Positions 969 to 61,369 are shown, numbered from the stretch's first letter. The stretch: 64,000 nt of DNA from Candidatus Amesbacteria bacterium RIFCSPLOWO2_01_FULL_48_25 (GCA_001773695.1 MEXN01000001.1:41903-105902); one strand, 5' to 3'. Notes: generated by a model not told the origin, from the sequence alone. Program-made: numbers and translations.

Positions 969-1991
969 ATGCCTCTTTCTTTAATCCGCCTCTGGCTCGG
1001 GCCTTTACCTAAAGAAGAAATTTTCCCCGAGAAAAAACCAAATTTTTTCCTCCACTGGTTCGTCCATCCCATCAAACGCCGCCTGGCCAAATATTATTTA
1101 TTACTCCTCCAGAAAACCTTCGGACTGACTGTTATTGGCATCACCGGCTCAGTCGGAAAAACCACCACCAAAAGAATGCTCCAAGCCATTCTTCCCAATT
1201 CAATAGCTACAGCAGACAACATTACTCCCACCTACAACATCCCCACTACGATTTTGCATACTCCTCCTTGGACCAAATATTTAATCTTAGAAATGGGCGT
1301 CGAATATATTGGCGATATGGACTTTTACCTCTGGCTCGCCCGCCCAGATATCGCCATCATCACCCCCATCAATCTCACCCACACTGTTTATCTCAAAAAC
1401 CTAAAAACCATAACCAACGAAAAAGAAAAAATCACCAAATATGCTAAACATATAATCACCTACAAAGACGTCAAAGCCACGGGGTACGAGGTCAACAAAG
1501 CCTTAGTTACAAAGGTCGCCCACCTCCTCGGTATTACACCCAACTTCTCGTCTTACGCCCCCGCGCCTCACAGGATGAATTTCATCAATCTCAAAAACGG
1601 CAGCATCTTAATAGACGACACTTACAACGCCAACCCCCTGGCCACCCAAGAAGCCTTAAAAACCCTGGTCAGAACTGCCACAAATCACAAAAAGACCCCA
1701 GTTTTTGTTTTTGCCCAAATGAACGAGCTAGGCCAGTATGAAAAGAGTGCCCACCAAAAAATTGGTTTAGAAATTAGAAAATTAGGAATTAGAAATTTAT
1801 TTTGTCTCGGCCCGGCAACGAAACATACAATCCAGTCCGCCGGCTTCGGCGAATACTGCAAAAATCAAGAAAATTTATACAAAGCATTAATGAAAATTGG
1901 GATTTTGGATTTGGGATTTGTGACTTTGATTAAGGGTTCCCGCTCCTGGCACCTGGAAAATTTAGTCGAGAAACTCATTTTTTCTCCATAA
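969..1991 (+). CDS. murF: UDP-MurNAc-tripeptide--D-Ala-D-Ala ligase (MurF-like Mur ligase); start codon uncertain
   Basis: The Mur ligase central and C-terminal domains are readable (GITGSVGKTTTKRML P-loop; DDTYNANP). The proposed start is the ATG at 969 (MPLSLIRL). The listed ORF begins at 792 with implausible residues. The gene is divergent from ddl. Confidence 0.7.
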   Translation: MPLSLIRLWLGPLPKEEIFPEKKPNFFLHWFVHPIKRRLAKYYLLLLQKTFGLTVIGITGSVGKTTTKRMLQAILPNSIATADNITPTYNIPTTILHTPPWTKYLILEMGVEYIGDMDFYLWLARPDIAIITPINLTHTVYLKNLKTITNEKEKITKYAKHIITYKDVKATGYEVNKALVTKVAHLLGITPNFSSYAPAPHRMNFINLKNGSILIDDTYNANPLATQEALKTLVRTATNHKKTPVFVFAQMNELGQYEKSAHQKIGLEIRKLGIRNLFCLGPATKHTIQSAGFGEYCKNQENLYKALMKIGILDLGFVTLIKGSRSWHLENLVEKLIFSP

Positions 1992-2217
1992 TAATTTTCT
2001 TTTTCAAACTCAAAATCTCCCTTTTCAGTTCCAATTTACGGACAAACCACAAATTGTGCTGGTCCATAACCAGTTTAGCTCCTTCATTCTCCCGATAATC
2101 ATCCCCCATGTCCGCCAAGGTTCTTTTTATCCTGATTTCCTCCGCTCCCACAGTCTCCAGCTGATGCAGCTCCCCCCTCAACTTTTTCAACTTTTCTTCT
2201 AATTCTTGCAATTTCAT
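1975..2217 (-). CDS. GreA-like N-terminal coiled-coil domain protein (80 aa; function uncertain)
   Basis: The coiled-coil segment with MGDDYRENEGAKL resembles the GreA/GreB N-terminal domain motif (GDLSENAEY). There is no C-terminal FKBP-like domain. Confidence 0.3.
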   Translation of the reverse strand: MKLQELEEKLKKLRGELHQLETVGAEEIRIKRTLADMGDDYRENEGAKLVMDQHNLWFVRKLELKREILSLKKKIIMEKK

Positions 2218-2302
2218 GTCGCAATTTTACTATCTAAATTTGACTTGCTTCAATCCCCGTGGTTCAATATAGAATGTAAGCTGTTGAATAACAGCTTTAG
2301 AG

Positions 2303-2340
2303 GGGTCTGGAGACCCGAACCACCTGCAGGTGGTTTTTTA
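2303..2340 (+). terminator. Intrinsic terminator-like hairpins followed by a T-run
   Basis: GGGTCTGGAGACCC then ACCACCTGCAGGTGGT followed by TTTTTT. It is oriented for the plus strand although no plus-strand gene is annotated in the preceding 300 nt. Confidence 0.35.
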
Positions 2341-2527
2341 AACCAAAACAATGGAAACTTTAAAATCCGGTACACCCAAGCCCGAAGCCAAAAAAAACTT
2401 TTTTGAATCTCTCCCCATAGTTGGAATCGCAATAAACTGGATCATCACTCGATATTACAAATACAAAGCCTCTCAATTCGCAAAATACAATCCCGGATTC
2501 ATCGAATACGCAGATCACCTCTAACTA

Positions 2528-3949: not shown

Positions 3950-4678
3950 CTAGTATATCATTACCCGCCTGGCTGTCAATACCAGCCTTTTCCAAGCCGT
4001 CCCAGGGGGCCAGCAGGTCTGCAAAACCAAAATCTCTTCCTCATCCTGCGGCTTCAAATATCTCGTATCACTAGACGCTAGACGCTGAACGCTAGACACT
4101 TTGTATATAAACAACTTGCCCTTGTAAACCAACTGGACTTCATCACCCAGTATCAACCTATCAAGCAAATAAAACACCGCATTATATCTAGCAAAGTCAA
4201 TGGGTTGTGCCGAATGGGCAAACAAAAACGTCGTCCCCTTCTCCCCCGGATGAGCCAATCCTTTGGCCTGCGCCACCCCCAGCTTCAAAGCCGTCAAGTA
4301 CTCCTTCTCGCTCCCGGCATCTACATTCTCAATAACTTTAGATACAGCACCAATTTTGGGAATATATACCGAAAAATTCTCGTCCGGCACTTCCCATTTT
4401 GGGACTTGTGATTTAATTATTGGAATTTCACTGAGACTGGTGACTTGAGGTTTGGGATTTACGAAGTATCTAAATTCTTCTTTCGCTAATGGCCCAAATA
4501 TCACTATCATCGCTATAACCCCATATCCCACCATAACTATTCCCACAGCTTTCAACCCTCTCCCGACATTCTTCAAAACTGTCACCCTCTTCCCAATATC
4601 CACCACCCCCACCGCCCCTTTTCCATAAACTACCCCTGACTTCATTTCCAAACTCGTCTGGCCAATTTTTGAAACCAT
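3950..4678 (-). CDS. Sortase-family transpeptidase (probable true start at the Met near 4645)
   Basis: N-terminal TM segment; FLFAHS (His), LVLQTCWPPG (TLxTC Cys motif) and a C-terminal RR are sortase catalytic signatures. Confidence 0.75.
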   Translation of the reverse strand: MVSKIGQTSLEMKSGVVYGKGAVGVVDIGKRVTVLKNVGRGLKAVGIVMVGYGVIAMIVIFGPLAKEEFRYFVNPKPQVTSLSEIPIIKSQVPKWEVPDENFSVYIPKIGAVSKVIENVDAGSEKEYLTALKLGVAQAKGLAHPGEKGTTFLFAHSAQPIDFARYNAVFYLLDRLILGDEVQLVYKGKLFIYKVSSVQRLASSDTRYLKPQDEEEILVLQTCWPPGTAWKRLVLTARRVMIY

Positions 4679-6143: not shown

Positions 6144-6471
6144 ATTATCTACCCGCACTCATCGAAATAACTCCCAGGTTTCTTTTCAGCATCTTTACTA
6201 GCTGCCCACGCATCGATACTCCCGCTACTACCCTCCGCCCCCTGCGAACACCCCTTCTACCAAACAACGCGAGCAGTTTTTGCATATCTTGCTACTCTTT
6301 AGGTCCTCAATCAGTAGTTTATCACCGCTTGTCAACCCAGTCAACCTATAGTCAACTCATCACTTACCTATAGTAATATTAATATGCAAAATAATCCCGA
6401 AACAAGGGCCGATGTGTATAAACCCAACTTCAAACTTCGGACTTCAAATTTCAAATTTTGAAAGTGGATAA

Positions 6472-7767
6472 CTAGTGCAAAAGTTTCTTAATCGCCGCCG
6501 CCACACTTTTACCCGATTCCGCCGAGGCCACCCTATACCCCAGTTTTTTCGCCTCTTTCACCCTCTTTTCCAGCCCCCCCACCTTCCTCACTTCCCCCAA
6601 CAAGCCCACCTCCCCAACCGCCGCGATATTACCCGAAAGCGGTTTATTCAAAAACGCCGAGGCCACCGCCAGACATATTGCCAAGTCCACCCCCCGGTCA
6701 GCCAGTCTAATTCCGCTCGTCACATTTACATAAATGTCACTTGTCTCTAGATGTAATCCCGCCCGGCGGGTCAAAACCGCCACCAACATCTGAATTCTTG
6801 CCAGATCTACCCCAGTAGTCACCCTGCGAGGCACCACCAACTGACTCGGAACCACAAGTGATTGTATTTCCACCAAAAGCGGCCGCCTTCCCTCCAAAAC
6901 CACCGACACCACGCTCCCCGCAACCCCTATCACTCTCTCCGAAAGCAAAATTTCCGATGGGTTATTCACTCCACTCATTCCCTTCTCAGTCATATCAAAT
7001 ACTCCCACTTCATCCGTCGGTCCGAACCGATTTTTTACCGCCCGTACTACCCGCAAACGTTGCCCCCTTTCGCCCTCAAACCACAGCACGCAATCTACCA
7101 TGTGCTCAAGTACCCGCGGACCGGCAATACTCCCTTCCTTCGTCACGTGCCCAATTAAAAACAATGGCTTTCCGCGACTTTTTGCACTCGTCGCCAACCG
7201 CAAAGCACACTCCCTTACTTGCCCTACCGACCCCGCCGTTCCAGTCAAATCCGACGTTGTCAATGTCTGAATAGAATCTACAATTATCACCTCCGGACCC
7301 ACCTCCTCGATCTTTGCCACAATTGCATCCGCATCTGTACTCTCCAACAACAAAATATCCCCCTTCCCTCCCAATCTCTTCACTCTCAAAGCAACCTGCG
7401 ATGCAGACTCTTCACCACAGACATATAGTACCCGATTCAATTTCAAAGCCACTTGCGTTAGTAACGTCGATTTGCCTATCCCCGGCTCCCCAGCGACCAA
7501 AACAACCATACCTGGCACCAATCCTCCCCCCAACACGCTATCCAATTCTCTTTCCCCAGTTTTGATTCTTTCATTTTCATCAACTTTAATTTCTGATAAC
7601 TTGTAAATTTTTGAATTGTAATTTTGATTTTTGACTTTTGAGTTTTGAGCTTGCGATACAACAGTCTCGACAAGACTGTTCCATGTATCGCAGCTAGGGC
7701 ATCTCCCCGCCCACTGACTCTGTGCATATCCGCACTGCTGGCACACAAACTGAGATCGAGATTTCAT
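6472..7767 (-). CDS. radA: DNA repair protein RadA/Sms
   Basis: N-terminal C4 zinc finger (CQQCGYAQSQWAGRCPSCDTWN), Walker A GEPGIGKSTLL, the RadA-specific KNRFG motif, and a Lon-like C-terminal domain. It carries an in-frame low-complexity insert (QNSKVKNQNYNSKIYK). Confidence 0.9.
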   Translation of the reverse strand: MKSRSQFVCQQCGYAQSQWAGRCPSCDTWNSLVETVVSQAQNSKVKNQNYNSKIYKLSEIKVDENERIKTGERELDSVLGGGLVPGMVVLVAGEPGIGKSTLLTQVALKLNRVLYVCGEESASQVALRVKRLGGKGDILLLESTDADAIVAKIEEVGPEVIIVDSIQTLTTSDLTGTAGSVGQVRECALRLATSAKSRGKPLFLIGHVTKEGSIAGPRVLEHMVDCVLWFEGERGQRLRVVRAVKNRFGPTDEVGVFDMTEKGMSGVNNPSEILLSERVIGVAGSVVSVVLEGRRPLLVEIQSLVVPSQLVVPRRVTTGVDLARIQMLVAVLTRRAGLHLETSDIYVNVTSGIRLADRGVDLAICLAVASAFLNKPLSGNIAAVGEVGLLGEVRKVGGLEKRVKEAKKLGYRVASAESGKSVAAAIKKLLH

Positions 7768-7775: not shown

Positions 7776-8897
7776 CTATTTATACCCTACAGGCTTCTCG
7801 GAAAGTACCACTCCCAAGCTCAGACGCCTTTTATCCAAATCCACCGACTCAACAAACGTCTCAACGGCCTGCCCTTCAGAAAAGGCCATATCAGCAGGCA
7901 TTTTAGACGCATGAATTAGTCCCTCAATCCCCTTATCCAGTTTGACCAGCACCCCATAAGGAGCAATCTTAGTCACCACTCCCTTGTGCTTACTGTCCGT
8001 CTTATACTTTTTAGCCACCACCAGCCACGGGTCATCTGACAACCGCTTCATAGACAAGGCCAATTTCCCACTCTCTTCATCCGTCCCGATTACCTGCACT
8101 TTTACTACATCGCCATCCTTTAAGGCTTTATTTACATCATCAACTTTTTCCCAAGATATCTCGGAAATATGCACCAACCCTTCCAATTTTTCCTCCCCAT
8201 CCAAGCCAATCTCCACGAACGCTCCAAACGGTACTATTCCCACTACCCGACCCTCATAACTCCCACCCATCTTCACTTTAGACAACGACGCCTTCCGTTT
8301 ACCGATCTCTTCTTCCTCGGTCACCGCCTTCTCACTCATTACCAATCGGTTTTGTCCCCGGTCCACCTCCACTACCTTCACCGCAAACGTCCGGCCCACC
8401 AGTCCCGCCACATTTCCCTCCCACTCGCGGGACAGCTGAGACGCTGGCACAAATCCGTAAATACCCTCCACATCGACAAGTAGTCCCCCCCGTGTCGCTT
8501 CCCGACCCACCACACTTACCACGTCACCCTCCTCAAACGCCTTATCCATAGCTTTCCACCGGCTGTCGGTAACTGCCCGCTTGAGAGACAAGACCACCTG
8601 CCCCGAGTCTGACTCCGGCACCACCACCACTCCCGTAACAGTATCCCCCACTTTCAAAGCCTTCAAATAATCCCGGGACAAATCGTATTCCTGGTCCGAA
8701 ACCGTCGCTTCCGCTTTGCCTCCAATATCAATCGAAATCGCCCGCCCGGCAATAGCCACCACCCGGCCAGTTACCACACTTCCTCGCCTAAAGCCCTTTA
8801 TTTTATACCCCGTCGAAGCCAGTAGCTCCTCCATCGTGGAGGGTTCTCCACTACCAGACCCGGTTTTGACTTTTGACTTTTGACTTTTGACTTTCAA
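7776..8897 (-). CDS. rpsA: S1 RNA-binding domain protein (ribosomal protein S1-like, about 4 S1 repeats)
   Basis: Repeated S1 domain pattern (G.VV.G.V..I...GAFV.I). The N-terminal MKVKSQKSKVKT is encoded by a TTTTGAC tandem repeat; the true start may be MEELL near 8834. Confidence 0.7.
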   Translation of the reverse strand: MKVKSQKSKVKTGSGSGEPSTMEELLASTGYKIKGFRRGSVVTGRVVAIAGRAISIDIGGKAEATVSDQEYDLSRDYLKALKVGDTVTGVVVVPESDSGQVVLSLKRAVTDSRWKAMDKAFEEGDVVSVVGREATRGGLLVDVEGIYGFVPASQLSREWEGNVAGLVGRTFAVKVVEVDRGQNRLVMSEKAVTEEEEIGKRKASLSKVKMGGSYEGRVVGIVPFGAFVEIGLDGEEKLEGLVHISEISWEKVDDVNKALKDGDVVKVQVIGTDEESGKLALSMKRLSDDPWLVVAKKYKTDSKHKGVVTKIAPYGVLVKLDKGIEGLIHASKMPADMAFSEGQAVETFVESVDLDKRRLSLGVVLSEKPVGYK

Positions 8898-10433: not shown

Positions 10434-12128
10434 TTACGTTAACTTCCCCGCCGCCTCAATAAATGATACAAATATTGGGTGCGGGGACAATGGCCGAGAT
10501 TTGTATTCAGGATGAAACTGCGTTCCTACAAAAAACGGATGGGTTTTTTGGGGCAACTCTATCGCCTCCACCAGCTTCCCATCCGGGCTCACTCCCGAAA
10601 CCACCAACCCCTTTTTCTCCAAAACCTCCCGATATTTATTATTTACCTCATATCTATGCCTATGCCTTTCATAAACTAAGTTTTGAATTTTGGATTTGGA
10701 ATTTGGGATTTGCTTAGAATTTAGATATTCGGATTTAGAGTTTTTATATGAATTAAAAATAATTGCTCCCTCTTTCAAAACGCACGGCCACGCCCCCAAC
10801 CGAATCGTCCCTCCATACTGGTGAGCATCTAAATATTTTTTTTGATCTGGCATGATATGAATCACTGGGAATTTTGTCTTTGCATCTACCTCCGTAGAAT
10901 TCGCACCCTTCATTCCACACATATTCCGGGCGTATTCGATAACCGCCATCTGCATTCCAAAACACAAGCCCAGATATGGCACCTTTTTCTCCCTGGCAAA
11001 TTTCACCGCTGCAATTTTCCCCTCCACCCCCCGGCTCCCCCACCCCTGCGGCACAATTACACCATCGAAGCCTTCCAACGCCTTACTCATATCGCCCACC
11101 TCATCACTGTTAAACCAATCCATAATCAGCTTTACTCCACACTTCGCCGCGGCGTGGTTAAGCGCTTCAATCACACAAATATACGAGTCTTTAAGCACAT
11201 AACTCCCAGTCGCAAAATATTTACCCACCATCGCAATCTTTACCTGTTTCTTTCCTCTCTCCAATTTCCTGACAAATGCTCCCCAGTCACCCAAATCCCG
11301 TTTTCCGGGTTTCATCGCCAACTTTTTCAATACCTTATCAGTCAACCCCTGCTCATCTAAAAACAACGGCACTTGATAAATATTGGTCAAATCCGGATTG
11401 GCAATGATATCTCCGTCATGCATATTACAAAACAACGCCAACCTTTCCCGACGTCTCGCATCTATCTCTTGTTCACTTCGAGCCACCAAAAAATCTGGCT
11501 GGATCCCCATAGAATTAAGCACATGTACCGACTGCTGAGTAGGCTTACTTTTAAGTTCTCCCACACTTCTAATCACCGGCAAATACGACACGTGCACATG
11601 CAACACATTCTCCGGCTCTCTTAACTTCATTATCCGGTTCGCTTCAAAAAACAGCCCATTTTGATATTCCCCCACCGTCCCCCCCAGTTCCACCACCACG
11701 ATCTGCGCCTGGTTCACCTCTCCCGCCCGCACAATCCGACCAATTATTTCATCGGTCACATGTGGAATAGCCTCCACATCCTCCCCGTTATATCCAAATG
11801 CCCTCTCCCGATCGATCACCGTTTTATATACTTGGCCCGTAGTCATATAGTTCTCCCGCTTCAACGACTCATTCAAAAACCGCTCGTAGTGGCCTATATC
11901 CTGATCCGTCTCAATCCCGTCGTCGGTTACAAATACTTCCCCGTGTTCCTGCGGCCTTATTGTTCCCGCATCCACATTCAAATACATATCAATCTTCACA
12001 TTCGTTACCCGAATCCCCCGGGATTTCAAAAGCATTCCAATAGACGCCGCTGTTATCCCCTTCCCCAGTCCGGAAATCACCCCCCCCGAAACAAAAATAT
12101 ACTTAGTCTTGCTCTTTACCCTAGGCAC
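10434..12128 (-). CDS. pyrG: CTP synthase
   Basis: N-terminal synthetase domain (KYIFVSGGVISGLGKGITAASIG) plus a C-terminal glutamine amidotransferase domain (GLCFGMQ; H-E pair). It contains an in-frame low-complexity insert (NSKSEYLNSKQIPNSKSKIQN). Confidence 0.92.
   Translation of the reverse strand: MPRVKSKTKYIFVSGGVISGLGKGITAASIGMLLKSRGIRVTNVKIDMYLNVDAGTIRPQEHGEVFVTDDGIETDQDIGHYERFLNESLKRENYMTTGQVYKTVIDRERAFGYNGEDVEAIPHVTDEIIGRIVRAGEVNQAQIVVVELGGTVGEYQNGLFFEANRIMKLREPENVLHVHVSYLPVIRSVGELKSKPTQQSVHVLNSMGIQPDFLVARSEQEIDARRRERLALFCNMHDGDIIANPDLTNIYQVPLFLDEQGLTDKVLKKLAMKPGKRDLGDWGAFVRKLERGKKQVKIAMVGKYFATGSYVLKDSYICVIEALNHAAAKCGVKLIMDWFNSDEVGDMSKALEGFDGVIVPQGWGSRGVEGKIAAVKFAREKKVPYLGLCFGMQMAVIEYARNMCGMKGANSTEVDAKTKFPVIHIMPDQKKYLDAHQYGGTIRLGAWPCVLKEGAIIFNSYKNSKSEYLNSKQIPNSKSKIQNLVYERHRHRYEVNNKYREVLEKKGLVVSGVSPDGKLVEAIELPQKTHPFFVGTQFHPEYKSRPLSPHPIFVSFIEAAGKLT
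10680..10750. repeat. Degenerate TTTGGRA/TTTAGA tandem repeats inside pyrG
   Basis: ttttgaattttggatttggaatttgggatttgcttagaatttagatattcggatttagag. Confidence 0.8.
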
Positions 12129-15141: not shown

Positions 15142-16700
15142 CTTCGCTACCATAGAACAGTTATAGTTACTGCTGCCGTTCACTCGAGCTTCATTTCAAG
15201 TCTTCGCCCTTGCGGGCTAAACCATCCACTTAACTTACGAGCACTGGGCAGGCTTCAGCCTGTATACTGCCTCTTTCGAGTTTGCACAGACCTGTGTTTT
15301 AGTTAAACAGTCGCAGAGCAATCTTTCGCTGCGGTCCGCCAAATGGCGGACAGGACATCTTGCTAACTTACGTCCAGCTTTTTTGCCGAGTTCCTTGAAC
15401 TGCCTTCTCCCGATCGCCTTGGTCTACTCGACCATCCCACCAGTGTCGGTTTGCGGTACGGCAAAGTAAACGTCTCGTCACGAACTTTTTCTCGAAAACA
15501 AAAACATTCCGGATCATCAACTCAATTTCTCAAGTCAACTCTTCATCACCACTCAATTAAACGCCATGCCGGATTTTCCAGGCACAACTGTTTCATGGCT
15601 TAAACGCGCATTCACTGCACACGCCCAGATGTTCTCGTTTTGTCTATCCCTGACTATTAACGACGTCCACTCTGTAGCCGAATATTCACGGCTCGTCCAT
15701 CAGCTACGGCCACTACGCCCTCGCCTTAGGTGCCGACTCACCCTGGGCCAAACAATGTCGCCCAGGAAACCTTGGGATTTCGGCGGTCCGAATTCTCATC
15801 GGACTTACGCTACTCATTCCGGCATTCTCACTTGAAACCGCTCCAAACCGGTTTACACCAGCCCTTCGCAGCAATTTCAACGCTCCCCTACCGATTCGTG
15901 CGCAGCACGAAAGTTACTAAGTATTCCAGTTAACCAGTTGCACAGTTGATTTAAACTGACAAACTGGAAAACTGTCGAACTGAATAACTTTTGTGCTACA
16001 CACAAATCCTGTGTCTTCGGCAAAACGCTTCAGCCTCGGTTCATTTTCCGCGCCAAACTCCAAATTCGACCAGTGAGCTGTTACGCTTTCTTTAAAGGAT
16101 GGCTGCTTCTGAGCCAACCTCCTGGCTGTCTGAGGAATTTGACTACGTTCAACACTAAGCGTTCATTTAGAGGCCTTAGACGACAGTCTGGGTTGTTTCC
16201 CTTTAGATCGGCCCGCTTAGCCGGGTCGTTCTGACTCCCTCGTAAGTTCTTACCAGCATTCGGAGTTTGATTGAATATTACAACTTGCGCTGCAACACCC
16301 ATCCAGTGCTCTACCTCTGATAAGTTTTTAACGAGAGGCTATACCTATATATATTTCGGGGAGAGCCAGCTATCTCCTGGTTCGATTGGCATATTACCCC
16401 TAATCACAAGTCGTCCCACAGGTTTGTAACCCTGACGGGTACGGGCCTCCCTCCGGTTTTCACCGGAGCTCACCCTGCTCATGATTAGCTCACCAGGTTT
16501 CGGGTCTTCCAGCTGCTGCTTTTCGCCCTATTCAGACTCGCTTTCGCTCCGCCTACTCCCGATTTAATCGGGATTAAACTCGCAACAACCGAAAACTCGC
16601 CGGATCATTCTTCAATAGGCACGCGATCATCCGCCAGATGGCGGACTCTCACTGCTTGTTAGCAGACAATTTCAGGTTCTATTTCACTCGGGTTTCGCCC

Positions 16701-24018: not shown

Positions 24019-24564
24019 CTACATCCCTTCCAAAATTTTGTAAACCACCGCCGCCGCAGCCACATGCACATTCAGGCTTTTATTTATTCCATACATCGGT
24101 ATCTCTACAATCACATCCGCCATGTCCAAAACCTCCTCATAAATCCCCTCGGTCTCATGGCCAACCACGATGGCCACCGGCCATCCAGCTAATAGCTTAT
24201 GGCTAATAGCTGATAGCTGAATTGCCCTCGAATCTTGCTCTACGGCTATGATTTTAAGACTTGGGATTTGGGATTTGAGGCTTGCCAGCGCGGAAACCGC
24301 ATCCGGCTCGTACTTCCAGGGAACCCAGGTCTCGGTGCCAACCGCGGCTTTATGAATACGAGAGCTGGGTGGTCTCTCCGTCCCCCCACAAAGTATTACT
24401 TCACGAGCCGCCACCGCATCCGCCAGGCGAAACAACGACCCGATATTATATGTATCCAACACGTTATCCAAAACCAAATACATCGGTTTCCTCTCAATTT
24501 TGGCCAACTCTTCCTCCGTCGGCCTTCTCACCCTCAACTGCTTCGCATTCAACTTCATCCCCAA
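24019..24564 (-). CDS. SpoU/TrmH-family RNA 2'-O-methyltransferase
   Basis: SPOUT motifs (IVVGHETEGIYEEV...IVEIPMYGINKSLNVHVAAAAVVY). It contains an in-frame insert from GCTAATAGCT and TTGGGAT repeats. Confidence 0.8.
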   Translation of the reverse strand: MGMKLNAKQLRVRRPTEEELAKIERKPMYLVLDNVLDTYNIGSLFRLADAVAAREVILCGGTERPPSSRIHKAAVGTETWVPWKYEPDAVSALASLKSQIPSLKIIAVEQDSRAIQLSAISHKLLAGWPVAIVVGHETEGIYEEVLDMADVIVEIPMYGINKSLNVHVAAAAVVYKILEGM

Positions 24565-41385: not shown

Positions 41386-42353
41386 AGCTTAATCACTTTA
41401 AAATCTTTCTCCCCAGGAATCAAATGTTCATCGGCACTAGTAATAACCGCCTGTCCCCCATAATTCTCCGCTAACTTCATCACTTCCTCCCGATGTTTAT
41501 GGTCCAACTCCGAAAATATATCGTCAAGAAGTAATATTGGGCTTCCCCCCAAGTATTCTATTTCCCTCCGCTTCAACCCCAACACCGTCATCCTCTGCTC
41601 TCCCCGACTCCCGTATTTAGATACGTCACGCCCACCAGCCATCAAAACAAAGTCATCCCTATGGGGTCCCACCAAAGTACTCCCCGCCAGCACTTCTTGT
41701 TGTTCATACTGCTTTAATCTTGCCTCCGAGATAACACTTTTGTCATAGAGAAACTCCATCGCCGCCAAAAACTCGGCCCTTTTTTGCGTCAAATACTCGC
41801 CATTTTTAATCAGAAGTTTATCCCAAAAAAATAGTTGGCTCCTACCCGCCCTACCGTCTCTAATCAAATCTAGAAGCCTATTCCTCTGGCGCAATCCCTT
41901 TTCGTAGCTCACCGCCGCTCTTCTATATTCCCGGTCCACCTGGGCTATCACAAAATCCAAATACCTGCGCCTTACAGAAGGACTTCCGGTAACCAACTCC
42001 ATATCCCCAGGCCCGAAACAAACTGCTCGCAAATTCCCCACAAAATCCATCATTCTCCGTGGAACCCCATTCACTTCAAACTTTTTTCTATCAGTGATTG
42101 TGACTTGTAAACTTATAATTTGGTCATCCATTGAGACTTGTGACTTGAGAATTGTAAATTGTTCCCCATATCTCACCATCTCGAAATCCCTCTCCGCCCT
42201 AAAACTCTTCCCCGTAGCCAACAGATAAACAGCCTCAACCAAATTACTCTTCCCACTCCCATTCTCTCCCAACACCAAAGTCCTCCTACCCAGCTCAAAC
42301 TCCCCCCTCCCATAGCTCCTGAAGTTAACCAGTCTGACACTTCGGACATACAT
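41382..42353 (-). CDS. recF: DNA replication and repair protein RecF
   Basis: N-terminal Walker A LVLGENGSGKSNL, SMC-like signature, and the C-terminal D-loop LLLDDIFSELD. In-frame low-complexity insert. Confidence 0.9.
   Translation of the reverse strand: MYVRSVRLVNFRSYGRGEFELGRRTLVLGENGSGKSNLVEAVYLLATGKSFRAERDFEMVRYGEQFTILKSQVSMDDQIISLQVTITDRKKFEVNGVPRRMMDFVGNLRAVCFGPGDMELVTGSPSVRRRYLDFVIAQVDREYRRAAVSYEKGLRQRNRLLDLIRDGRAGRSQLFFWDKLLIKNGEYLTQKRAEFLAAMEFLYDKSVISEARLKQYEQQEVLAGSTLVGPHRDDFVLMAGGRDVSKYGSRGEQRMTVLGLKRREIEYLGGSPILLLDDIFSELDHKHREEVMKLAENYGGQAVITSADEHLIPGEKDFKVIKL
42094..42163. repeat. Degenerate TTGTGAC/TTGAGA repeats inside recF
   Basis: gtgattgtgacttgtaaacttataatttggtcatccattgagacttgtgacttgagaattgtaaattg. 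Confidence 0.8.
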
Positions 42354-43155
42354 ACGTCCCCCTGCCTCCTAACTCAAATTTCTTAATTACACCCTTACAC
42401 CGTCTACACTCTTGCCCCTCCCGGTCGTACACCCGAAAGTGCTCCTGGTAATGCCCACCCAACCCGTGCAAGTCGATGTATTTAGCGTCGGCCGCAGTCG
42501 CCCCCCCGTATTTAATTCCTTCGCTCAATACGAGTTTTATTTTCTCCAGCAAAACTGTCAACTGTTCCCCTTGGAGCTTGTGGCTTGGGGTTTGTGGATT
42601 GGTTTTGGCTTCCCAAAGCGCGTCATTTGCATAAATATTCCCCACCCCAGATATTACTTCCTGGTCCATAATCGCAACCTTAATAGGTTTTCTTAATCTA
42701 CCTAATCTCTTAATAAACTCAGTCTCGTTTATCTCAAACGGTTCCGGCCCCAGCTTTTCCACAAATTTCGGATTCACCTCCACCCACCCGAACAATCTCT
42801 GGTCATTGAAATAAAGTGTCCCCTTACTGAAATAAAATATCGCCCTTGTGTGTCCGCTTGGCATCCTGGCCACAAAATCCTCCGTCGGATGCCCGCCTAC
42901 CACTCTCTTGCCTTTTTCTTCATATATTAATTGGCCAGTCATTTTGAAATGAAAACCTAGTTTTAATCCCGGACCAAAATTTATCAATAACACCTTCCCC
43001 CTTCTCTCGACACCTTTTACACCTTTATGCTTTATGCTATCGAGATTCCCCTTAATCACTTTATGATTTAATATCTTAATATCTTTGCAAACCTGTCCCA
43101 TCAGCACCCTCCCCAACTGCACCCTCACCGTCTCAATCTCAGGCAATTCCGGCAT
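42325..43155 (-). CDS. mutM: Formamidopyrimidine-DNA glycosylase
   Basis: MPELPEIETV N-terminus (Pro2/Glu3 catalytic), H2TH, and a C-terminal zinc finger CRRCKG...CPKCQ. Confidence 0.9.
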   Translation of the reverse strand: MPELPEIETVRVQLGRVLMGQVCKDIKILNHKVIKGNLDSIKHKGVKGVERRGKVLLINFGPGLKLGFHFKMTGQLIYEEKGKRVVGGHPTEDFVARMPSGHTRAIFYFSKGTLYFNDQRLFGWVEVNPKFVEKLGPEPFEINETEFIKRLGRLRKPIKVAIMDQEVISGVGNIYANDALWEAKTNPQTPSHKLQGEQLTVLLEKIKLVLSEGIKYGGATAADAKYIDLHGLGGHYQEHFRVYDREGQECRRCKGVIKKFELGGRGTYVCPKCQTG

Positions 43156-46065: not shown

Positions 46066-46105
46066 AATTGTTTAGAAATTAGAAATTAAGATTTAGAAAT
46101 TTTAT
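46066..46105. repeat. TAGAAAT-type tandem repeats in the intergenic region downstream of ftsH
   Basis: tttagaaattagaaattaagatttagaaatttta. Confidence 0.7.
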
Positions 46106-54431: not shown

Positions 54432-54776
54432 CTAAATCCCCACATACAACTCCCACCATTTGCGCCAATTTGCCTCGGTATTGGAATTTGTGGCTTGAGA
54501 TTTAAGATTTGGAGGACTTGGTACAATCACAACAACCTCTCCTAGCTTTCCCAAGCCTAGTTTCTCCCTCGCCTCCCGCTCCACAAAATCATCCGATTTT
54601 ACCTCCTCTAACTTCTGCTGCAGCTGCTTGTTTTCAACCTCAGCCGCCGCCACTTCAGACTGGGCTCGTTTCACCCTCTCCCCCGCCCGGATTAGTCTCC
54701 ACACATTCCCCCCCAGCCTCACCGTGACACCAATACTCAATATCAATACCAGCCATCTAACCCATCTCTTTCCCAT
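54432..54776 (-). CDS. Septum formation initiator (FtsB/DivIC-like)
   Basis: Single TM plus a coiled coil (RAQSEVAAAEVENKQLQQKLEEVKSDDFVEREAREKLGL). Start at MGKRW. The C-terminus contains a repeat-derived insert. Confidence 0.5.
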   Translation of the reverse strand: MGKRWVRWLVLILSIGVTVRLGGNVWRLIRAGERVKRAQSEVAAAEVENKQLQQKLEEVKSDDFVEREAREKLGLGKLGEVVVIVPSPPNLKSQATNSNTEANWRKWWELYVGI

Positions 54777-58507: not shown

Positions 58508-59029
58508 CTACTTCTTAGTTTTTACAGGTATCGGCATTCCCAATTTTTTCATCTGCCGGATGCACCACACTGCCAACCACCTGATCGCCTCCCACACTTT
58601 GTGATGTAACCCCTGGGTAATCTGGTCATCGGTCAGGGGTATGGTAACTTTAGGGTTTTGGGGGTTGGCCGATCCCATCAGTACCTGCCCCACATAGTCG
58701 TCCGTCCCAGCTTGTCCCAGCTCTGCCTCCTTCTCCACTTTTTCTATCCACCCCTCCCGCTCAAGTTTCGGCTCCACCTCCGGCTCTGCCGGTACTTCCT
58801 CCACCTCTTCAATAACTCTCTCCTTTCTTATTCTCCCAGCAGCGACCTCCAGCTGCTCTTTAAAATGCCCTCCCGCGTTGTACATCGCCTGCGGATCCCA
58901 TTGTTTCTCCTCGTACTCCTCCACATCATCTGCCATACTTGGCACCGGATTGGCAGTCAGCTCATCCAGATCCTGCGCGGCTTGTGGTTTACTTGGAACT
59001 TGTGGCTTGGGATTTGGGATTTGATTCAT
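58508..59029 (-). CDS. Hypothetical acidic protein (173 aa)
   Basis: Glu-rich central region; the N-terminus is encoded by a TTGGGAT/CTTGTGG repeat; no motif. Confidence 0.4.
   Translation of the reverse strand: MNQIPNPKPQVPSKPQAAQDLDELTANPVPSMADDVEEYEEKQWDPQAMYNAGGHFKEQLEVAAGRIRKERVIEEVEEVPAEPEVEPKLEREGWIEKVEKEAELGQAGTDDYVGQVLMGSANPQNPKVTIPLTDDQITQGLHHKVWEAIRWLAVWCIRQMKKLGMPIPVKTKK
58981..59026. repeat. CTTGTGG/TTTGGGA repeats at the 5' end of the acidic-protein ORF
   Basis: cttgtggtttacttggaacttgtggcttgggatttgggatttgattc. Confidence 0.8.
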
Positions 59030-59697: not shown

Positions 59698-59967
59698 ATG
59701 ACCCAATTAAGTACCACCCTCACCGCCAGTAATGCTCGCTCAAATTTCTACCAAATCCTTGCCAACGCAGTCGACAATTTAAATCGATTCACAATAAAAA
59801 TACGCGGCAAGGGCGATGCAATCATCATGTCAAAAGAAGAGCTCGAAAGCTGGGAAGAGACACTGGATATCTTATCCAACAAAAAACTTGCAAACAGTTT
59901 ACGAAAGGCCCTGAGATCCAAAAAAACCTATACCCAAGAAGAAGTTTACAAAAAACTGGGGTGGTAA
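59698..59967 (+). CDS. Antitoxin Phd/YefM family
   Basis: LTASNARSNFYQILANAVDNLNRFTIKIRGKGDAIIMSKEELESWEETLDIL matches the Phd/YefM fold. Confidence 0.7.
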   Translation: MTQLSTTLTASNARSNFYQILANAVDNLNRFTIKIRGKGDAIIMSKEELESWEETLDILSNKKLANSLRKALRSKKTYTQEEVYKKLGW

Positions 59968-59976
59968 TACAAACCC

Positions 59977-60225
59977 GTGAAACTAATTTTCAAGTCTGAG
60001 GCTGAAAAGAAGATGGCCAAGATTGGAGCCAGGGATATACCCAAAATCAAACGAAAACTCGCCTCGCTATTAGATGATCCTCTCTCCGGCAAATTGCTAT
60101 CGGGAGAATTTTCAGGCATTCGCAGTATACGAGCCTGGCCACTGCGTATACTTTATTCTTTTAATCCAAAATCCCAGACAATCACCATCGAAGCCGTCGA
60201 CTACCGCGGCCAGGTCTATAAATAA
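59977..60225 (+). CDS. Toxin, RelE/ParE (YoeB/Txe-like) family; GTG start
   Basis: 82 aa; ...RAWPLRILYSFNPKSQTITIEAVDYRGQVYK has the RelE-like C-terminal pattern. It is immediately downstream of the Phd-like gene. Confidence 0.65.
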   Translation: MKLIFKSEAEKKMAKIGARDIPKIKRKLASLLDDPLSGKLLSGEFSGIRSIRAWPLRILYSFNPKSQTITIEAVDYRGQVYK

Positions 60226-60732
60226 TCATCCTCTCCATACCTCCTCCGGAATTTTGAGCTTGTGGTTTATCCACCTCCCCATCACAAACAGCGCGTCGGA
60301 CAACCTGTTTAAATATTTCAACGTGTTTTTTTCTTTTATCCCCAATGCCACCACCCTACGCTCCGCTCTTCTGCACACACTTCTGGCTACTTGTAGCTCC
60401 CCCACCGGATAAACAAAATTGGCCAATTTCGGTAAATCCCGGGTCCACTTATCAATCTTATTCTCTAAATTCTTAATTTCCTGATATCTTAACTTCAATC
60501 CGCTCCCCGCCAATCCCGACCCAATAGTCAGTAAATTTGTTTGAATTCTTTTTAATTCTTTTTCAATGACTGAATCTTGAATTTTGAATCTTGAATTTTC
60601 CCTGCATGTTCCCACCCATGAATTTAATTCATCAATTGCTCCCAGCGCCTCCGCCAATTGGTCGCCCTTACCCATCCGCCCATAAAACGTCCCCGTCCTC
60701 CCTCGATCCCCAGTTTTAGTGTAAATTTTCAT
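60226..60732 (-). CDS. PduO-type ATP:cob(I)alamin adenosyltransferase family protein
   Basis: MKIYTKTGDRGRTGTFYG N-terminal signature. A repeat-derived insert is present. Confidence 0.72.
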   Translation of the reverse strand: MKIYTKTGDRGRTGTFYGRMGKGDQLAEALGAIDELNSWVGTCRENSRFKIQDSVIEKELKRIQTNLLTIGSGLAGSGLKLRYQEIKNLENKIDKWTRDLPKLANFVYPVGELQVARSVCRRAERRVVALGIKEKNTLKYLNRLSDALFVMGRWINHKLKIPEEVWRG

Positions 60733-61369
60733 TCTTCTTCAATATCTTCAGCGCTTCTACCAAATAGTGATGAATTTCACTGTGTACTCCCTCCACATAT
60801 CCATAATGATCAACCGGTACCAAAACTGGCACGTCCACTATTTTCAGCATTTTTCCCCCGGAAAATCCCAACAATCCCGCCGTCGTCGCCCCAACCTCGT
60901 TGGCATATTCGATCGCCTTCACCACATTCATACTATTTCCACTCCCGGAAATTCCCACTACCACGTCTCCCTTTTTTACAAAATTTTTCAACTGTTCCAC
61001 AAAAATATCTTCATAAGACAGATCATTTCCCAACGCCGTCATCCATGCCACGTTGTCAGTCAGCGCCACCGTCTTAAATCTCCTTTTACTATTACTATTT
61101 ACTATTACTGTGTTCTTACCTATATCAGCGGCCAAATGGGTAGCGGTACTCGCACTCCCCCCATTACCCATAAAAAATATCGTCTTGTCAGATTTGTATG
61201 CTTTCCAAATCACATTCACCATCTTCTCCATTTGCTTATAATCCAGCTTGTCCAACACTCCCCTCAGCTCTCTAAAATACTCTTCAGAAAATCCCAACTT
61301 TTGATTTTTGAGTAGTGTTTTTGCTCGCATGCGAAGATGTTTTTGACTTTTAATTCTTGACTTGGTCAT
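60716..61369 (-). CDS. gmhA: Phosphoheptose isomerase (SIS domain, GmhA-like)
   Basis: IFFMGNGGSASTATHLAADI SIS motif. In-frame insert (NSNSKRRFKT) from a TACTATT repeat. Confidence 0.78.
   Translation of the reverse strand: MTKSRIKSQKHLRMRAKTLLKNQKLGFSEEYFRELRGVLDKLDYKQMEKMVNVIWKAYKSDKTIFFMGNGGSASTATHLAADIGKNTVIVNSNSKRRFKTVALTDNVAWMTALGNDLSYEDIFVEQLKNFVKKGDVVVGISGSGNSMNVVKAIEYANEVGATTAGLLGFSGGKMLKIVDVPVLVPVDHYGYVEGVHSEIHHYLVEALKILKKNENLH

What the first reader, a model, noticed from the sequence alone, without database searches (positions are those of the whole stretch)
1766..61110. Degenerate 7-8-nt tandem repeats inserted in frame into many conserved genes, producing K/S/Q/N-rich or L/G/F-rich loops
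More than 15 loci carry 25-70-nt tracts of tandem heptamers (TTTTGAC, TTTGGGA, CTTGTGR, TTGAGAC, AATTAGA, TTGAATC, TACTATT). Affected genes include murF (twice), radA, the S1-domain gene, pyrG, spoU, pcm, the DNA ligase, recF, mutM, the ftsB-like gene, the PduO-like gene, gmhA and the acidic protein.

All preserve the reading frame and lie in what should be surface loops or termini. A few are intergenic (46066-46105; 34379-34410).

Such recurrent simple-sequence insertions in core genes are unusual. They might reflect a slippage-prone replication or repair background, or a family of tiny insertion elements; both are speculative.
Basis: seen in the sequence. Interest (0 to 1): 0.55.

Follow-up and report, generated by a model that had tools for sequence, protein, structure and literature searches.

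The report
Heptamer repeat arrays inside bacterial genes
In this ultra-small groundwater bacterium (Candidatus Amesbacteria), short runs of a repeated 7-base unit sit inside many housekeeping genes and are translated. Repeats of this kind normally stay between genes, so here they appear to act as a slow, lineage-specific rewriter of protein segments.

Summary
The repeats are real. TRF finds 23 period-7/14 arrays in 64 kb, against 2.1 expected from shuffles, and nine independent assemblies give the same sequence. The window is from Candidatus Amesbacteria (CPR).

Because 7 is not a multiple of 3, each array is read in all three frames in turn, which gives a 7-residue peptide period. A-rich coding strands yield K/S/Q/N; the opposite orientation (murF) yields L/G/I/F.

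"Inserted into loops" is only half right.
- pyrG (+17 aa), the first pcm array (+21/24 nt) and the spoU, gmhA and PduO arrays add residues.
- The radA, murF, ligase and mutM arrays and the second pcm array occupy aligned positions with no length change. The second pcm array lies partly in a confidently predicted helix.

Related Amesbacteria and Gottesmanbacteria carry 146 such arrays against 17 expected, often at the same protein positions but with different units. At the pcm hot spot, array and array-free forms differ by exactly three units (21 nt).

Each genome favours its own units (10-fold sharing within versus between genomes). Units that would create stop codons are depleted in coding sequence. 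No copy-number polymorphism was seen.

Best reading: heptanucleotide simple-sequence arrays, a known class, that here tolerate coding sequence and evolve in concert. This is a new variant, and the mechanism is unresolved.

The parts
1767..1799 (.). TTAGAAA array (units of 7 and 8 nt alternate, so the period is 15) in murF, a + strand gene. Encodes residues 326-336, LEIRKLGIRNL. No length change against S. pneumoniae MurF.
   Evidence: The 7+8 spacing keeps TAG out of frame.
1897..1920 (.). TTGGGAT x3.4 in murF, residues 369-377, IGILDLGFV. No insertion.
4071..4097 (.). CTAGACG x3.9 in the sortase-domain gene, residues 194-203.
4437..4471 (.). Degenerate YTTGKRR array in the sortase-domain gene, residues 70-81, RYFVNPKPQVTS.
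6426..6458 (.). Intergenic array AACTTCA / TTCAAAT, just downstream of radA.
7609..7648 (.). TTTTGAN x5.9 in radA, residues 40-53, AQNSKVKNQNYNSK. Lies in the linker after the zinc finger. No length change against S. pneumoniae RadA.
8864..8894 (.). Perfect TTTTGAC x4.4 at the 5' end of the S1-domain gene, or just upstream of it. The start codon is ambiguous: TTG at 8897 or the ATG at residue 22.
10681..10760 (.). About 9 degenerate units (TTTTGAA to TTTGGGA) in pyrG, residues 457-483. Includes a 17-aa insertion against Thermus CTP synthase.
15953..15989 (.). Period-8 repeats (CAGUUNNN) forming one arm of a roughly 95-nt hairpin inserted at a helix tip of 23S rRNA. The other arm carries the complementary AACUGNNN repeats.
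24187..24218 (.). AGCTAAT x4.6 in the SpoU/TrmH gene, residues 116-126. About +6 aa against T. thermophilus TrmH.
24261..24277 (.). TTGGGAT x2.4 in the SpoU/TrmH gene, residues 96-102, LKSQIPS. No insertion.
34381..34410 (.). TTTCAAA x4.3 in pcm, residues 115-125, EFEIRNLKFEN. Residues 115-120 lie within predicted helix 108-120. No length change. The single variant unit removes an in-frame TGA.
34527..34553 (.). TTTTGAC x3.9 in pcm, residues 67-76, IQKSKGKSQK. Lies in the loop between helix 56-67 and strand 77-84. This is an insertion hot spot: 39 nt in this window, 36 nt in array-bearing relatives and 15 nt in array-free relatives.
35331..35361 (.). ACTGTCA x4.4 in the ATP-dependent DNA ligase, residues 478-488, KLTVDNYQLTV. 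Nearly all of the 33 + 12 orthologues have the same length here (a few differ by 1-2 residues, and one has a 7-aa insert). The 80%-identical relative has a different 7-periodic sequence in the same register.
36459..36527 (.). Mixed 7/8-nt units (TTGTGAAA, TTTGGGA, CTTGAGA) in the ligase, residues 89-112. Lies in a variable-length loop.
40897..40911 (.). TTCAAAT x2.1 in nnrD, residues 159-163, NLKFE.
42131..42154 (.). TTGAGAC x3.4 in recF, residues 67-75. Many Amesbacteria orthologues carry a different short repeat at this position.
42570..42602 (.). CTTGKRG units in mutM, residues 185-196. No length change. 83% identical over 35 nt to the array at 58992-59026.
43023..43038 (.). CTTTATG x2.3 in mutM, residues 40-45.
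46072..46101 (.). Intergenic TTAGAAA x4.3, with stop codons in every frame. 75% identical over 44 nt, flanks included, to the murF array at 1758-1801.
54480..54514 (.). Degenerate array in the ftsB-like gene, residues 109-120, PPNLKSQATNSN.
58992..59026 (.). CTTGTGG / TTGGGAT units at the N-terminus of the acidic protein (MNQIPNPKPQVPSK).
60571..60599 (.). TGAATCT x3.7 in the PduO-type adenosyltransferase gene, residues 45-54, ENSRFKIQDS. About +2 aa.
61085..61109 (.). TTTACTA x3.3 in the gmhA-like SIS gene, residues 87-95, TVIVNSNSK. About +4 aa.
61299..61369 (.). Two further TTTTGAN tracts at the gmhA-like N-terminus, residues 1-24 (MTKSRIKSQK ... KNQK).

Best explanation
**What it is.** These are heptanucleotide simple-sequence arrays. 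Repeats with 7-nt units are the size class already known to dominate long prokaryotic simple repeats. In this CPR lineage they live inside coding sequence as readily as outside it.

**Proposed working (inferred).**
1. An array starts and changes by misaligned DNA synthesis in a 7-nt register, during replication or repair.
2. Inside a gene, only two kinds of event survive. One adds or removes three units (21 nt, 7 codons). The other overwrites neighbouring sequence with no net length change.
3. Because 7 and 3 share no factor, the array is translated in all three frames in turn and gives a 7-residue peptide period.
4. Selection removes units that would create a stop codon in any frame, or patches the offending copy. 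It also keeps only arrays whose peptide is tolerated at that position: loops, linkers, termini, and occasionally a helix whose hydrophobic pattern still fits.
5. Repeated gain, loss or conversion of units keeps the copies within an array alike while arrays in different species drift apart. This is concerted evolution.
6. Some copying between arrays at different loci keeps a genome's arrays on the same few units.

**Shown versus inferred.**
- Shown:
  - the period-7 excess;
  - the frame cycling;
  - the depletion of stop-containing units;
  - the 21-nt difference between array-bearing and array-free forms at one hot spot;
  - hot spots shared between species but with different units;
  - the units specific to each genome;
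  - the stability of the arrays within the population.
- Inferred:
  - slippage as the generator;
  - the way arrays communicate between loci;
  - near-neutrality of the arrays.
For: - **Excess of period 7.** 23 arrays against 2.1 expected in the window, and 146 against 17.4 in 34 related loci.
- **Confined to discrete arrays.** No residual 7-nt signal remains after masking.
- **Not excluded from coding sequence.** 18 of 23 arrays lie in CDS, which makes up 72% of the window. Arrays are spread along gene bodies.
- **Stop-codon filter.**
  - 32% of CDS arrays have a unit that contains a stop on the coding strand. The figure is 58% on the antisense strand, 53% for random heptamers of the same composition, and 10 of 13 for intergenic arrays.
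  - In pcm 34381-34410, the only variant unit sits where TGA would be in frame.
  - In murF, the TTAGAAA array alternates 7- and 8-nt units, so TAG is never in frame.
- **Steps of three units.**
  - The pcm hot spot is 36 nt in L041, L021, L024 and L019, and 15 nt in L011 and L039.
  - Ligase homologues show 13 and 14 inserts of 6 and 7 aa, then only 3 of 8 aa.
- **Concerted evolution.** Four-unit arrays in the same register use ATTTTCA, ATTTCNA, AGTCAAA or GTGCAAA in different genomes. KLTVDNYQLTV in the window corresponds to KLSVDSYQLSV in P0002.
- **Genome-specific units.** 7.1% of within-locus array pairs have identical units, against 0.69% between loci (0 of 300 permutations). AATGGAC accounts for 8 of 16 arrays in L010.
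- **Orientation follows the encoded peptide, not the replication strand**.
- **Literature.** Heptanucleotides are the most abundant long simple repeats in prokaryotes, and polymerase slippage over about 7 nt has been proposed as the cause (Mrazek et al. 2007, as summarised in PMC4679880).
Against: - **No copy-number variation was seen.** It is absent from nine assemblies and from the >=90%-identity protein clusters, even for the perfect 4.4-copy array. Active slippage should leave some polymorphism.
- **Local slippage alone does not explain sharing between loci.** It does not predict that unlinked genes in one genome share a unit, or that arrays at different loci share the order of their variant units (7 pairs at >=23/28 identity against 2.0 expected).
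- **Array composition is not that of local sequence.** Arrays are 13% G against a 27% background, so they are not random local sequence that was duplicated.
- **Half of the arrays change no length**. A single 7-nt slip would be a frameshift, so these need a compound or conversion-type event that has not been shown directly.
- **Nothing here explains why the register is 7.**
Confidence: 0.55

Rival explanations
1. **Dispersal by copying.** Arrays are spread as multi-unit blocks from a source elsewhere in the genome. The route could be a very small insertion element, ectopic gene conversion or template switching between arrays, or synthesis from a short template (for example an RNA copied by a reverse transcriptase). 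Local slippage plays only a minor part.
For: - Units are shared 10-fold more often within a genome than between genomes.
- L010 has 10 arrays of ACAATGG/ACAATTG in at least 6 genes.
- The order of variant units is shared between loci beyond a shuffle null.
- The mutM and acidic-protein arrays are 83% identical over 35 nt. The murF and intergenic TTAGAAA arrays are 75% identical over 44 nt, flanks included.
- Favourite units are not over-represented as single copies outside arrays, so the array is the unit that propagates.
- Array composition differs from the local background.
- The same units occur in unrelated viral contigs, including in frame in genes of a Mu-like phage.
Against: - No terminal repeats, target-site duplications or conserved flanks were seen.
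- Each genome has several unit families rather than one.
- Many arrays replace sequence without adding length.
- No reverse transcriptase or transposase gene was found in the window.
- At orthologous sites the units differ by 1-2 nt in a graded way, which looks like descent in place.
Confidence: 0.2
2. **Selected cis-elements.** The arrays are binding sites on mRNA or DNA for a protein that reads one heptamer per domain, such as a cold-shock or S1-type OB-fold protein. The protein's specificity co-evolves with the genome's favourite unit.
For: - Units are genome-specific.
- A perfect array sits at the 5' end of the S1-domain gene.
- B. subtilis CspB binds heptamer direct repeats, one protein per heptamer. 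S1, Csp and Csr proteins have been proposed as binders of TAACTGA repeats (PMC4679880).
Against: - Arrays show no positional preference relative to gene starts or ends.
- Several unrelated unit families coexist in one genome.
- Close relatives have no arrays at all (L040, L016, L022 and L026 are at the chance level).
- Arrays turn over completely by about 80% protein identity.
Confidence: 0.1
3. **Selection on the protein.** Hydrophilic low-complexity surface segments are favoured, and the DNA periodicity is a by-product.
For: - Arrays in genes on the G-rich strand are A-rich on the coding strand (109 against 23), which gives K/S/Q/N.
- Hot spots coincide with loops and linkers.
Against: - The period is 7 nt, not a multiple of 3, and a 7-residue peptide repeat rarely completes two copies.
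- Hydrophobic products are also tolerated: IFNFQFSIF in L021, and IGILDLGFV in murF.
- The same kind of array occurs in intergenic DNA and in 23S rRNA.
Confidence: 0.05
4. **Chance or assembly artefact.** The tracts come from low-complexity composition or from errors in metagenome assembly.
For: The source is a metagenome-assembled genome. The arrays are AT-rich and short.
Against: - The excess over dinucleotide-preserving shuffles is about 11-fold.
- Independent assemblies from different samples are identical.
- Reading frames are intact, and homologues align end to end across the arrays.
- Stop-codon avoidance shows that selection has acted on these sequences.
Confidence: 0.01

Closest known systems
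Heptanucleotide long simple sequence repeats of prokaryotic genomes (Mrazek, Guo and Shah 2007, as summarised in PMC4679880 and PMC4692102)
   Same: - Head-to-tail arrays of a 7-nt unit, a few copies long.
- Far more frequent than chance, with 7 as the dominant period.
- Patchy phylogenetic distribution.
- Polymerase slippage over about 7 nt is the proposed cause.
   Different: - In that survey, repeats inside genes were mostly those with units that are multiples of three.
- Here 78% of arrays are in coding sequence, in proportion to its share of the window, and in housekeeping genes.
Dispersed single-unit heptamer repeats: GGGNATC in Xanthomonas and Nostoc (PMC4692102), TAACTGA in Beggiatoaceae, cyanobacteria and Bacteroidetes (PMC4679880), and cyanobacterial STRR (own knowledge)
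   Same: - A genome-specific favourite heptamer recurs at many unlinked loci.
- Typically 2-6 copies per array.
- The number of single-copy occurrences does not predict the number of arrays (compare).
- Stop codons in the unit constrain where arrays can sit.
   Different: - Those repeats are intergenic, close to gene starts or ends, and under-represented in coding regions.
- In those genomes one unit dominates. Here several unit families coexist.
- Here the arrays are translated.
- G-quadruplex potential is absent for most units here.
Heptanucleotide repeats building the P6b stem-loop of the Nostoc tRNA-Leu(UAA) group I intron
   Same: - Degenerate heptamer repeats on both arms of a hairpin, with length variation by unit number.
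- The 23S rRNA insertion here has this architecture.
- So do the inverted array pairs in viral contigs.
   Different: - The 23S repeats here have period 8.
- The protein-coding arrays are single direct arrays with no complementary partner.
Phase-variable contingency loci (simple repeats that switch genes on and off by frameshift)
   Same: Non-triplet tandem repeats inside open reading frames.
   Different: - No copy-number polymorphism.
- No enrichment near the 5' end.
- The host genes are core metabolism and DNA repair, not surface or virulence genes.
- A frameshift would inactivate core genes that are presumably indispensable.
Codon-level low-complexity regions produced by triplet slippage
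   Same: Lineage-specific low-complexity peptide segments in otherwise conserved proteins, concentrated in permissive loops.
   Different: The repeat unit is 7 nt and is read in three frames in turn. The peptide is therefore a 7-residue mixed pattern, not a homopolymer or short amino-acid repeat.

Membership tests
Heptanucleotide long simple sequence repeats (LSSR) | Head-to-tail copies of a 5-11-nt unit, longer or more numerous than expected by chance | tested here: met
   23 arrays against 2.1 +/- 1.3 in shuffles. Across all 160 arrays from the window and relatives, the median is 4 copies, the maximum is 9.7, and 56 are perfect.
Heptanucleotide long simple sequence repeats (LSSR) | Seven is the dominant unit length | tested here: met
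   Period 7: 18 non-redundant arrays against 1.5 expected. Period 8: 8 against 1.9. Period 9: 9 against 1.7.
Heptanucleotide long simple sequence repeats (LSSR) | Copy number varies between strains, the signature of slippage | tested here: not met
   No array length change in nine assemblies or in members of the >=90%-identity clusters. Only one clonal population was available, so the test is weak.
Heptanucleotide long simple sequence repeats (LSSR) | Non-triplet units are largely excluded from coding sequence | tested here: not met
   18 of 23 arrays are in CDS, which is 72% of the window (binomial p = 0.79 for the intergenic share).
Dispersed single-heptamer repeat systems (TAACTGA, GGGNATC, STRR) | One heptamer dominates a genome's arrays | tested here: inconclusive
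   Sharing within a genome is 10-fold above sharing between genomes, and 8 of 16 L010 arrays use AATGGAC. But the window has at least 5 unit families.
Dispersed single-heptamer repeat systems (TAACTGA, GGGNATC, STRR) | Intergenic location within about 50 nt of a start or stop codon | tested here: not met
   Most arrays are inside genes and spread along them.
Dispersed single-heptamer repeat systems (TAACTGA, GGGNATC, STRR) | Four or more G-runs able to form a G-quadruplex (GGGNATC type only) | tested here: not met
   Only the TTGGGAT arrays have GGG runs, and none of them reaches four consecutive GGG-containing units.
Phase-variable contingency loci | Frameshifting copy-number changes, 5' bias, and surface or virulence genes as hosts | tested here: not met
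   No polymorphism, no 5' bias, and the host genes are housekeeping genes.
Miniature mobile elements (MITE or REP type) | Defined ends, terminal inverted repeats or target-site duplications, and conserved length | tested here: not met
   Array flanks are not conserved and array lengths vary. Only two pairs of loci share some flanking similarity.
Triplet-slippage low-complexity regions | Repeat period is a multiple of three | tested here: not met
   The period is 7 or 14.

The most novel reading that the evidence does not exclude
Some Microgenomates lineages, and phages that carry the same units, may have an active and so far undescribed process. It would copy or write multi-unit heptamer blocks into unlinked loci, coding sequence included. 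A genome's arrays would then co-evolve as a family and continually rewrite short segments of essential proteins by cycling through the three reading frames. The patchy presence or absence among sister lineages would then reflect gain or loss of a specific enzyme.
Probability: 0.2. Interest if true: 0.8.

Novelty: new variant of a known kind. Interest (0 to 1): 0.55.

Why it matters
Non-triplet simple repeats are normally kept out of genes, because each slip is a frameshift. Here they are as dense inside housekeeping genes as outside them, and two further patterns stand out.
- They persist at the same protein positions for long periods while their sequence turns over in concert.
- They are shared among unlinked genes of one genome.

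If this holds genome-wide, several things follow.
- It is a distinct route of protein sequence change in CPR bacteria, with 7-residue segments written by DNA repeat dynamics rather than by point mutation.
- It is a natural system for asking why 7 nt is the preferred slippage register in prokaryotes.
- It is a source of error for alignments, phylogenies and structure prediction of CPR proteins.
- Array-rich and array-free sister lineages make the responsible replication or repair factor findable by comparative genomics.

Tried and rejected
- **Orientation set by the replication strand: rejected.** Arrays in opposite-strand genes and intergenic DNA show no bias (10 A-rich against 13 T-rich), while arrays in same-strand genes are A-rich on the coding strand. 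Both orientations of one unit family occur in the window (murF against pcm, pyrG).
- **A weak 7-nt periodicity throughout the genome: rejected.** Nothing remains after the arrays are masked.
- **Favourite units as over-represented single-copy motifs (uptake or polarity signals): rejected**.
- **Enrichment near the 5' end or phase variation: rejected**.
- **Length polymorphism: not found.** Nine assemblies and the 90%-identity protein clusters showed none.
- **Metagenome scan with both flanks of the perfect array and a variable gap.** It found nothing, not even the source sequence, so that collection does not hold this population.
- **An intermediate relative.** The nearest ligase outside the 90% cluster is 80% identical, so short-term array dynamics could not be seen.
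- **Mismatch-repair gene content.** Not testable from one window, and a literature search gave nothing usable.
- **Literature on repeats in CPR, Amesbacteria or Patescibacteria.** No relevant paper turned up.
- **Tracts set aside.** pth 31936-31977, nnrD 41061-41089 and ligase 35763-35795 have periods of 6, 9 or 13 and are conserved in relatives.
- **ORF calls in high-GC viral contigs.** These are unreliable, so the coding status of arrays there was used only for the Mu-like phage, whose genes were confirmed with Pfam.

Full report
**Source and setting**

The window matches contig MEXG01000011 of GCA_001773615.1 exactly. Its proteins are annotated as Candidatus Amesbacteria bacterium RIFCSPHIGHO2_01_FULL_48_32 / RIFCSPLOWO2_01_FULL_48_25, a member of the Microgenomates within the Candidate Phyla Radiation. 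Relatives retrieved with the DNA ligase are other Amesbacteria (56-69% identity) and Gottesmanbacteria (41-51%). Most genes lie on the - strand. The + strand has a GC skew of -0.2 to -0.49 in almost every 2-kb bin.

Yes.
- Tandem Repeats Finder lists 72 rows, and period 7 dominates them.
- After merging overlaps there are 23 clusters with period 7 or 14. Thirty dinucleotide-preserving shuffles gave 2.1 +/- 1.3, with a maximum of 6.
- By non-redundant period: 18 arrays of period 7 against 1.5 expected, 8 of period 8 against 1.9, and 9 of period 9 against 1.7.
- Exact 6-mers recur at 7, 14 and 21 nt 114, 93 and 76 times, against mostly about 20-60 at other distances. Once the arrays are masked the excess at 7 disappears, so the signal comes from discrete arrays and not from a diffuse periodicity.
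- Seven assemblies from different samples are 99.99-100% identical to the window over up to 20.6 kb. Two more are 99.98% and 99.94% identical, with no change in any array. Assembly artefact is therefore excluded.
- Three listed or nearby tracts have periods of 6, 9 or 13 and are conserved in relatives, so I set them aside: pth 31936-31977, nnrD 41061-41089 and ligase 35763-35795.

**Anatomy**

- Arrays have a median of four copies. Across all 160 arrays from the window and relatives, 56 are perfect.
- They are 70% A+T against 56% for the background. G is halved (13% against 27%) and A is raised (45% against 30%) on the G-rich strand.
- Because 7 is not a multiple of 3, an array is translated in the three frames in turn. 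For example, (GTCAAAA)n reads V-K-S-Q-K-S-K.
  - In - strand genes the coding strand of the arrays is A/C-rich and yields K/S/Q/N/P.
  - In murF, on the + strand, the same chromosomal orientation is read as L/G/I/F.

Selection on reading-frame integrity is visible in several ways.
- The unit contains a stop codon in some frame of the coding strand in 32% of CDS arrays. The figure is 58% on their antisense strand, 53% for random heptamers of the same composition, and 10 of 13 for intergenic arrays.
- In pcm 34381-34410, the coding strand is (AATTTGA)n. The single variant copy, AATTAGA, is exactly the copy in which TGA would have been in frame.
- In murF the TTAGAAA array alternates 7- and 8-nt units (period 15), so TAG never falls in frame.
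- The pure TTAGAAA x4.3 array at 46072 is intergenic.

**Inserted, and in loops?**

Only partly. Alignment to solved homologues and to 33 + 12 orthologues gives the following.

| Tract | Length change | Evidence |
|---|---|---|
| pyrG | +17 aa | |
| pcm 67-76 | +6 aa against E. coli PCMT; +7/8 against array-free Amesbacteria | |
| spoU 116-126 | +6 aa | |
| gmhA | +4 aa | |
| PduO | +2 aa | |
| radA linker | none | |
| murF, both arrays | none | |
| ligase 478-488 | none | |
| mutM 185-196 | none | |
| spoU 96-102 | none | |
| pcm 115-125 | none | |

An AlphaFold model of pcm (mean pLDDT 94) gives the structural context.
- Residues 68-76 form a lower-confidence loop between helix 56-67 and strand 77-84.
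- Residues 115-120 lie inside helix 108-120, with pLDDT about 97.

In that helix the array-encoded residues keep the hydrophobic pattern of homologues: EIRNLKFENV against xxLxxLGxxNV. About half of the arrays therefore overwrite aligned positions rather than add to them.

**Comparison with relatives**

- The 34 related loci (546 kb) hold 146 period-7/14 arrays against 17.4 expected.
- The distribution is patchy. L010 has 18 against 0.2 and L021 has 13 against 0.6, while L040, L016, L022 and L026 are at the chance level.
- Arrays recur at the same protein positions with different units:
  - At recF 67-75, many Amesbacteria carry a different short repeat, for example GEIGEIGEIG, GQIGQIGQI and ILNFQFLIN.
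  - At pcm 67-76, most of about 45 homologues have an extra segment of constant length and very variable sequence, for example IQKSKGKSQK, IFNFQFSIFNS, IRDSRFKIQDL and ISNSEFLISK. A few have about +15 or +20 residues and some have none.
- At the DNA level the pcm segment is 36 nt in L041, L021, L024 and L019 and 15 nt in L011 and L039. The difference is exactly three heptamers.
- The four-unit arrays stand in the same register. They use ATTTTCA, ATTTCNA or GTGCAAA (AGTCAAA in the window), and each is homogeneous within its genome.
- In 119 ligase homologues, distinct inserts of 6 and 7 aa number 13 and 14, then 3 of 8 aa and 1 of 9 aa, with a second cluster at 13-17 aa.
- The ligase 478-488 array reads KLTVDNYQLTV here and KLSVDSYQLSV in a 75%-identical homologue, with the same change in both copies.
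- In the closest relative (L041, 80% identity), the same positions hold an unrelated 7-periodic sequence of equal length.

Together these results indicate three things.
- Change happens in steps of three units.
- Units evolve in concert within an array.
- Arrays turn over completely by about 80% protein identity, yet are stable within the sampled population.

**Communication between loci**

- Identical units (any rotation, same strand) occur in 7.1% of array pairs within a locus, against 0.69% between loci (0 of 300 label permutations).
- L010 has ten ACAATGG/ACAATTG arrays in at least six genes, four or five of them in the ligase. L021 reuses AATTTTC and the window reuses AAATCCC, AAAAGTC and AATTTSA.
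- The favourite units are not over-represented as single copies outside arrays.
- Arrays at different loci also share the order of their variant units. Seven pairs reach >=23/28 identity, against 2.0 when heptamers are shuffled within arrays (0 of 200).
- The mutM and acidic-protein arrays are 83% identical over 35 nt and share an exact 13-mer.
- The shuffle null is imperfect for arrays with 8-nt units, so I treat this as moderate evidence for block-level copying between loci.

**Orientation and position**

- In genes on the G-rich strand, arrays are A-rich on the coding strand (109 against 23). In opposite-strand genes and intergenic DNA there is no bias (10 against 13). Orientation therefore reflects which peptides and stop codons are tolerated, not the replication strand.
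- Arrays are spread along gene bodies with no 5' bias.
- In the window, 18 of 23 arrays lie in CDS, which is 72% of the sequence. Coding sequence is not avoided.

**Beyond protein genes**

- The period-8 tract at 15953-15989 lies in a roughly 95-nt insertion at a helix tip of 23S rRNA. One arm is (CAGUUNNN)n and the other is the complementary (AACUGNNN)n, so the insertion is a hairpin built from repeats.
- Scanning IMG/VR for three exact copies of two units (TTTTGAC and AATGGAC) gave 19 and 17 stretches, where essentially none is expected by chance. They come from contigs of 29-64% G+C.
- Several of those contigs are dense in heptamer arrays. Many of the arrays are adjacent inverted pairs, often outside long ORFs.
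- One contig is a Mu-like phage, with Mu portal and Mu F domains, a MuB-like ATPase and tail proteins. It has a GC skew of -0.35 and carries in-frame arrays in its genes.

**Mechanism**

The best-supported account is that these are heptanucleotide simple-sequence arrays. Heptamers are the most abundant long simple repeats in prokaryotes. Slippage over a roughly 7-nt polymerase contact has been proposed as the cause (Mrazek et al. 2007, as summarised in PMC4679880; PMC4692102).

In this lineage the arrays persist in coding sequence under two filters: net length must be a multiple of three, and no stop codon may arise in any frame. Gain, loss or conversion of units homogenises each array.

Four observations remain unexplained by local slippage alone.
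- Units are shared between loci.
- Array composition is G-poor.
- Half the arrays change no length.
- No polymorphism was seen.

I therefore keep a copying or templated-dispersal model as a serious rival (0.2). A cis-element model comes next (0.1), then protein-level selection (0.05) and artefact (0.01).

**Relation to known systems**

- The arrays meet the defining features of heptanucleotide LSSRs: tandem structure, excess over chance, and dominance of period 7.
- They fail two usual properties of that class, exclusion from coding sequence and variability between strains. The variability test is weak, because only one clonal population was available.
- They resemble the dispersed TAACTGA, GGGNATC and STRR systems in reusing a genome-specific unit. 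They differ in location, in being translated, and in having several unit families.
- They are not contingency loci, miniature mobile elements or triplet low-complexity regions.
- Searches of the held literature found no description of such arrays in CPR bacteria. That is not proof of absence.

**Verdict**

- The phenomenon is a new variant of a known kind.
- It is of moderate to good interest. Its main value is as a comparative system, because array-rich and array-free sister lineages could identify what drives heptamer arrays and how they move between loci.

Noticed in passing
window 1-64000: The + strand has an extreme GC skew, -0.20 to -0.49 in every 2-kb bin except 52-54 kb (-0.03). Genes on the + strand (murF, the 663-aa ORF at 29052-31043, the xerC-like gene) have C-rich coding strands and P/T/H/L/S/Q-rich products. 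The skew therefore belongs to the strand and is not a by-product of coding. Most Amesbacteria relatives show 0.25-0.37 (a few low-GC ones 0.13-0.18) and Gottesmanbacteria 0.04-0.24.
   Followed up: partly
window 13173-22965: The ribosomal RNA genes are dispersed. 16S (21472-22965) and 23S (14406-17220) are separated by three protein genes (17606-20137), a tRNA-Ile on the opposite strand and a tRNA-Ala. A LAGLIDADG endonuclease ORF (13768-14304) lies between 23S and 5S (13173-13289).
   Followed up: partly
window about 15900-16000 (- strand): 23S rRNA carries a roughly 95-nt insertion at a helix tip (Rfam model position about 1218). It is built from 8-nt repeats that are complementary between the two arms.
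   Followed up: yes
window 51428-51686 (+): A match to the group I intron model (62 bits, full length). ARAGORN found no host tRNA and the flanks show no obvious host gene. TRF also reports an 11-nt repeat inside it (51565-51594).
   Followed up: partly
window 52186-53267: 40-nt direct repeats (83% identical) bracket a Fic-domain gene (52229-53188). They lie in the only bin without GC skew, next to an HTH gene, tRNA-Met (54095) and a xerC-like integrase gene (54867-55742). This may be a small integrated element.
   Followed up: no
window 38129-38189 and 58419-58479: A 61-nt repeat (77% identical). One copy lies at the 5' end of, or just upstream of, the other Fic-domain gene. The other lies just upstream of a gene for a type IV secretion coupling-protein-like ATPase (56044-58389).
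   Followed up: no
L066 and L076 (IMGVR_UViG_3300028638_000037): A Mu-like phage contig with 52% G+C and a GC skew of -0.35. It carries in-frame heptamer arrays (ATTCGCT, ATTGTCC/AATGGAC, AATTATC) in its portal, tail and other genes. Some units are the same as in the Amesbacteria locus L010. The host is unknown.
   Followed up: partly
L044, L056, L068, L063, L073, L078 (IMG/VR contigs): Very dense heptamer arrays, up to 14 per 10 kb and up to about 22 copies. Many are adjacent inverted pairs that would form hairpins. The units include AATTGAC, AATGGAC, AAAAGTC, AATTACG and AATTTTC, which are also seen in the CPR loci.
   Followed up: partly
window and loci L008-L041, all arrays: Units are not random AT-rich heptamers. 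On the G-rich strand, TCAA occurs in 28% of units (6% expected), AATT in 27% (9% expected) and CAA in 51% (21% expected). This suggests a loose superfamily around AATT[TC][CA]A. It could reflect shared ancestry of the arrays or a filter on tolerated peptides.
   Followed up: partly
window 42737-42751 and 34679-34699: The few differences between near-identical assemblies are clustered: 4 substitutions within 15 nt, and 5 changes (including a compensating +1/-1 indel pair) within 21 nt. Both clusters lie outside the arrays.
   Followed up: no
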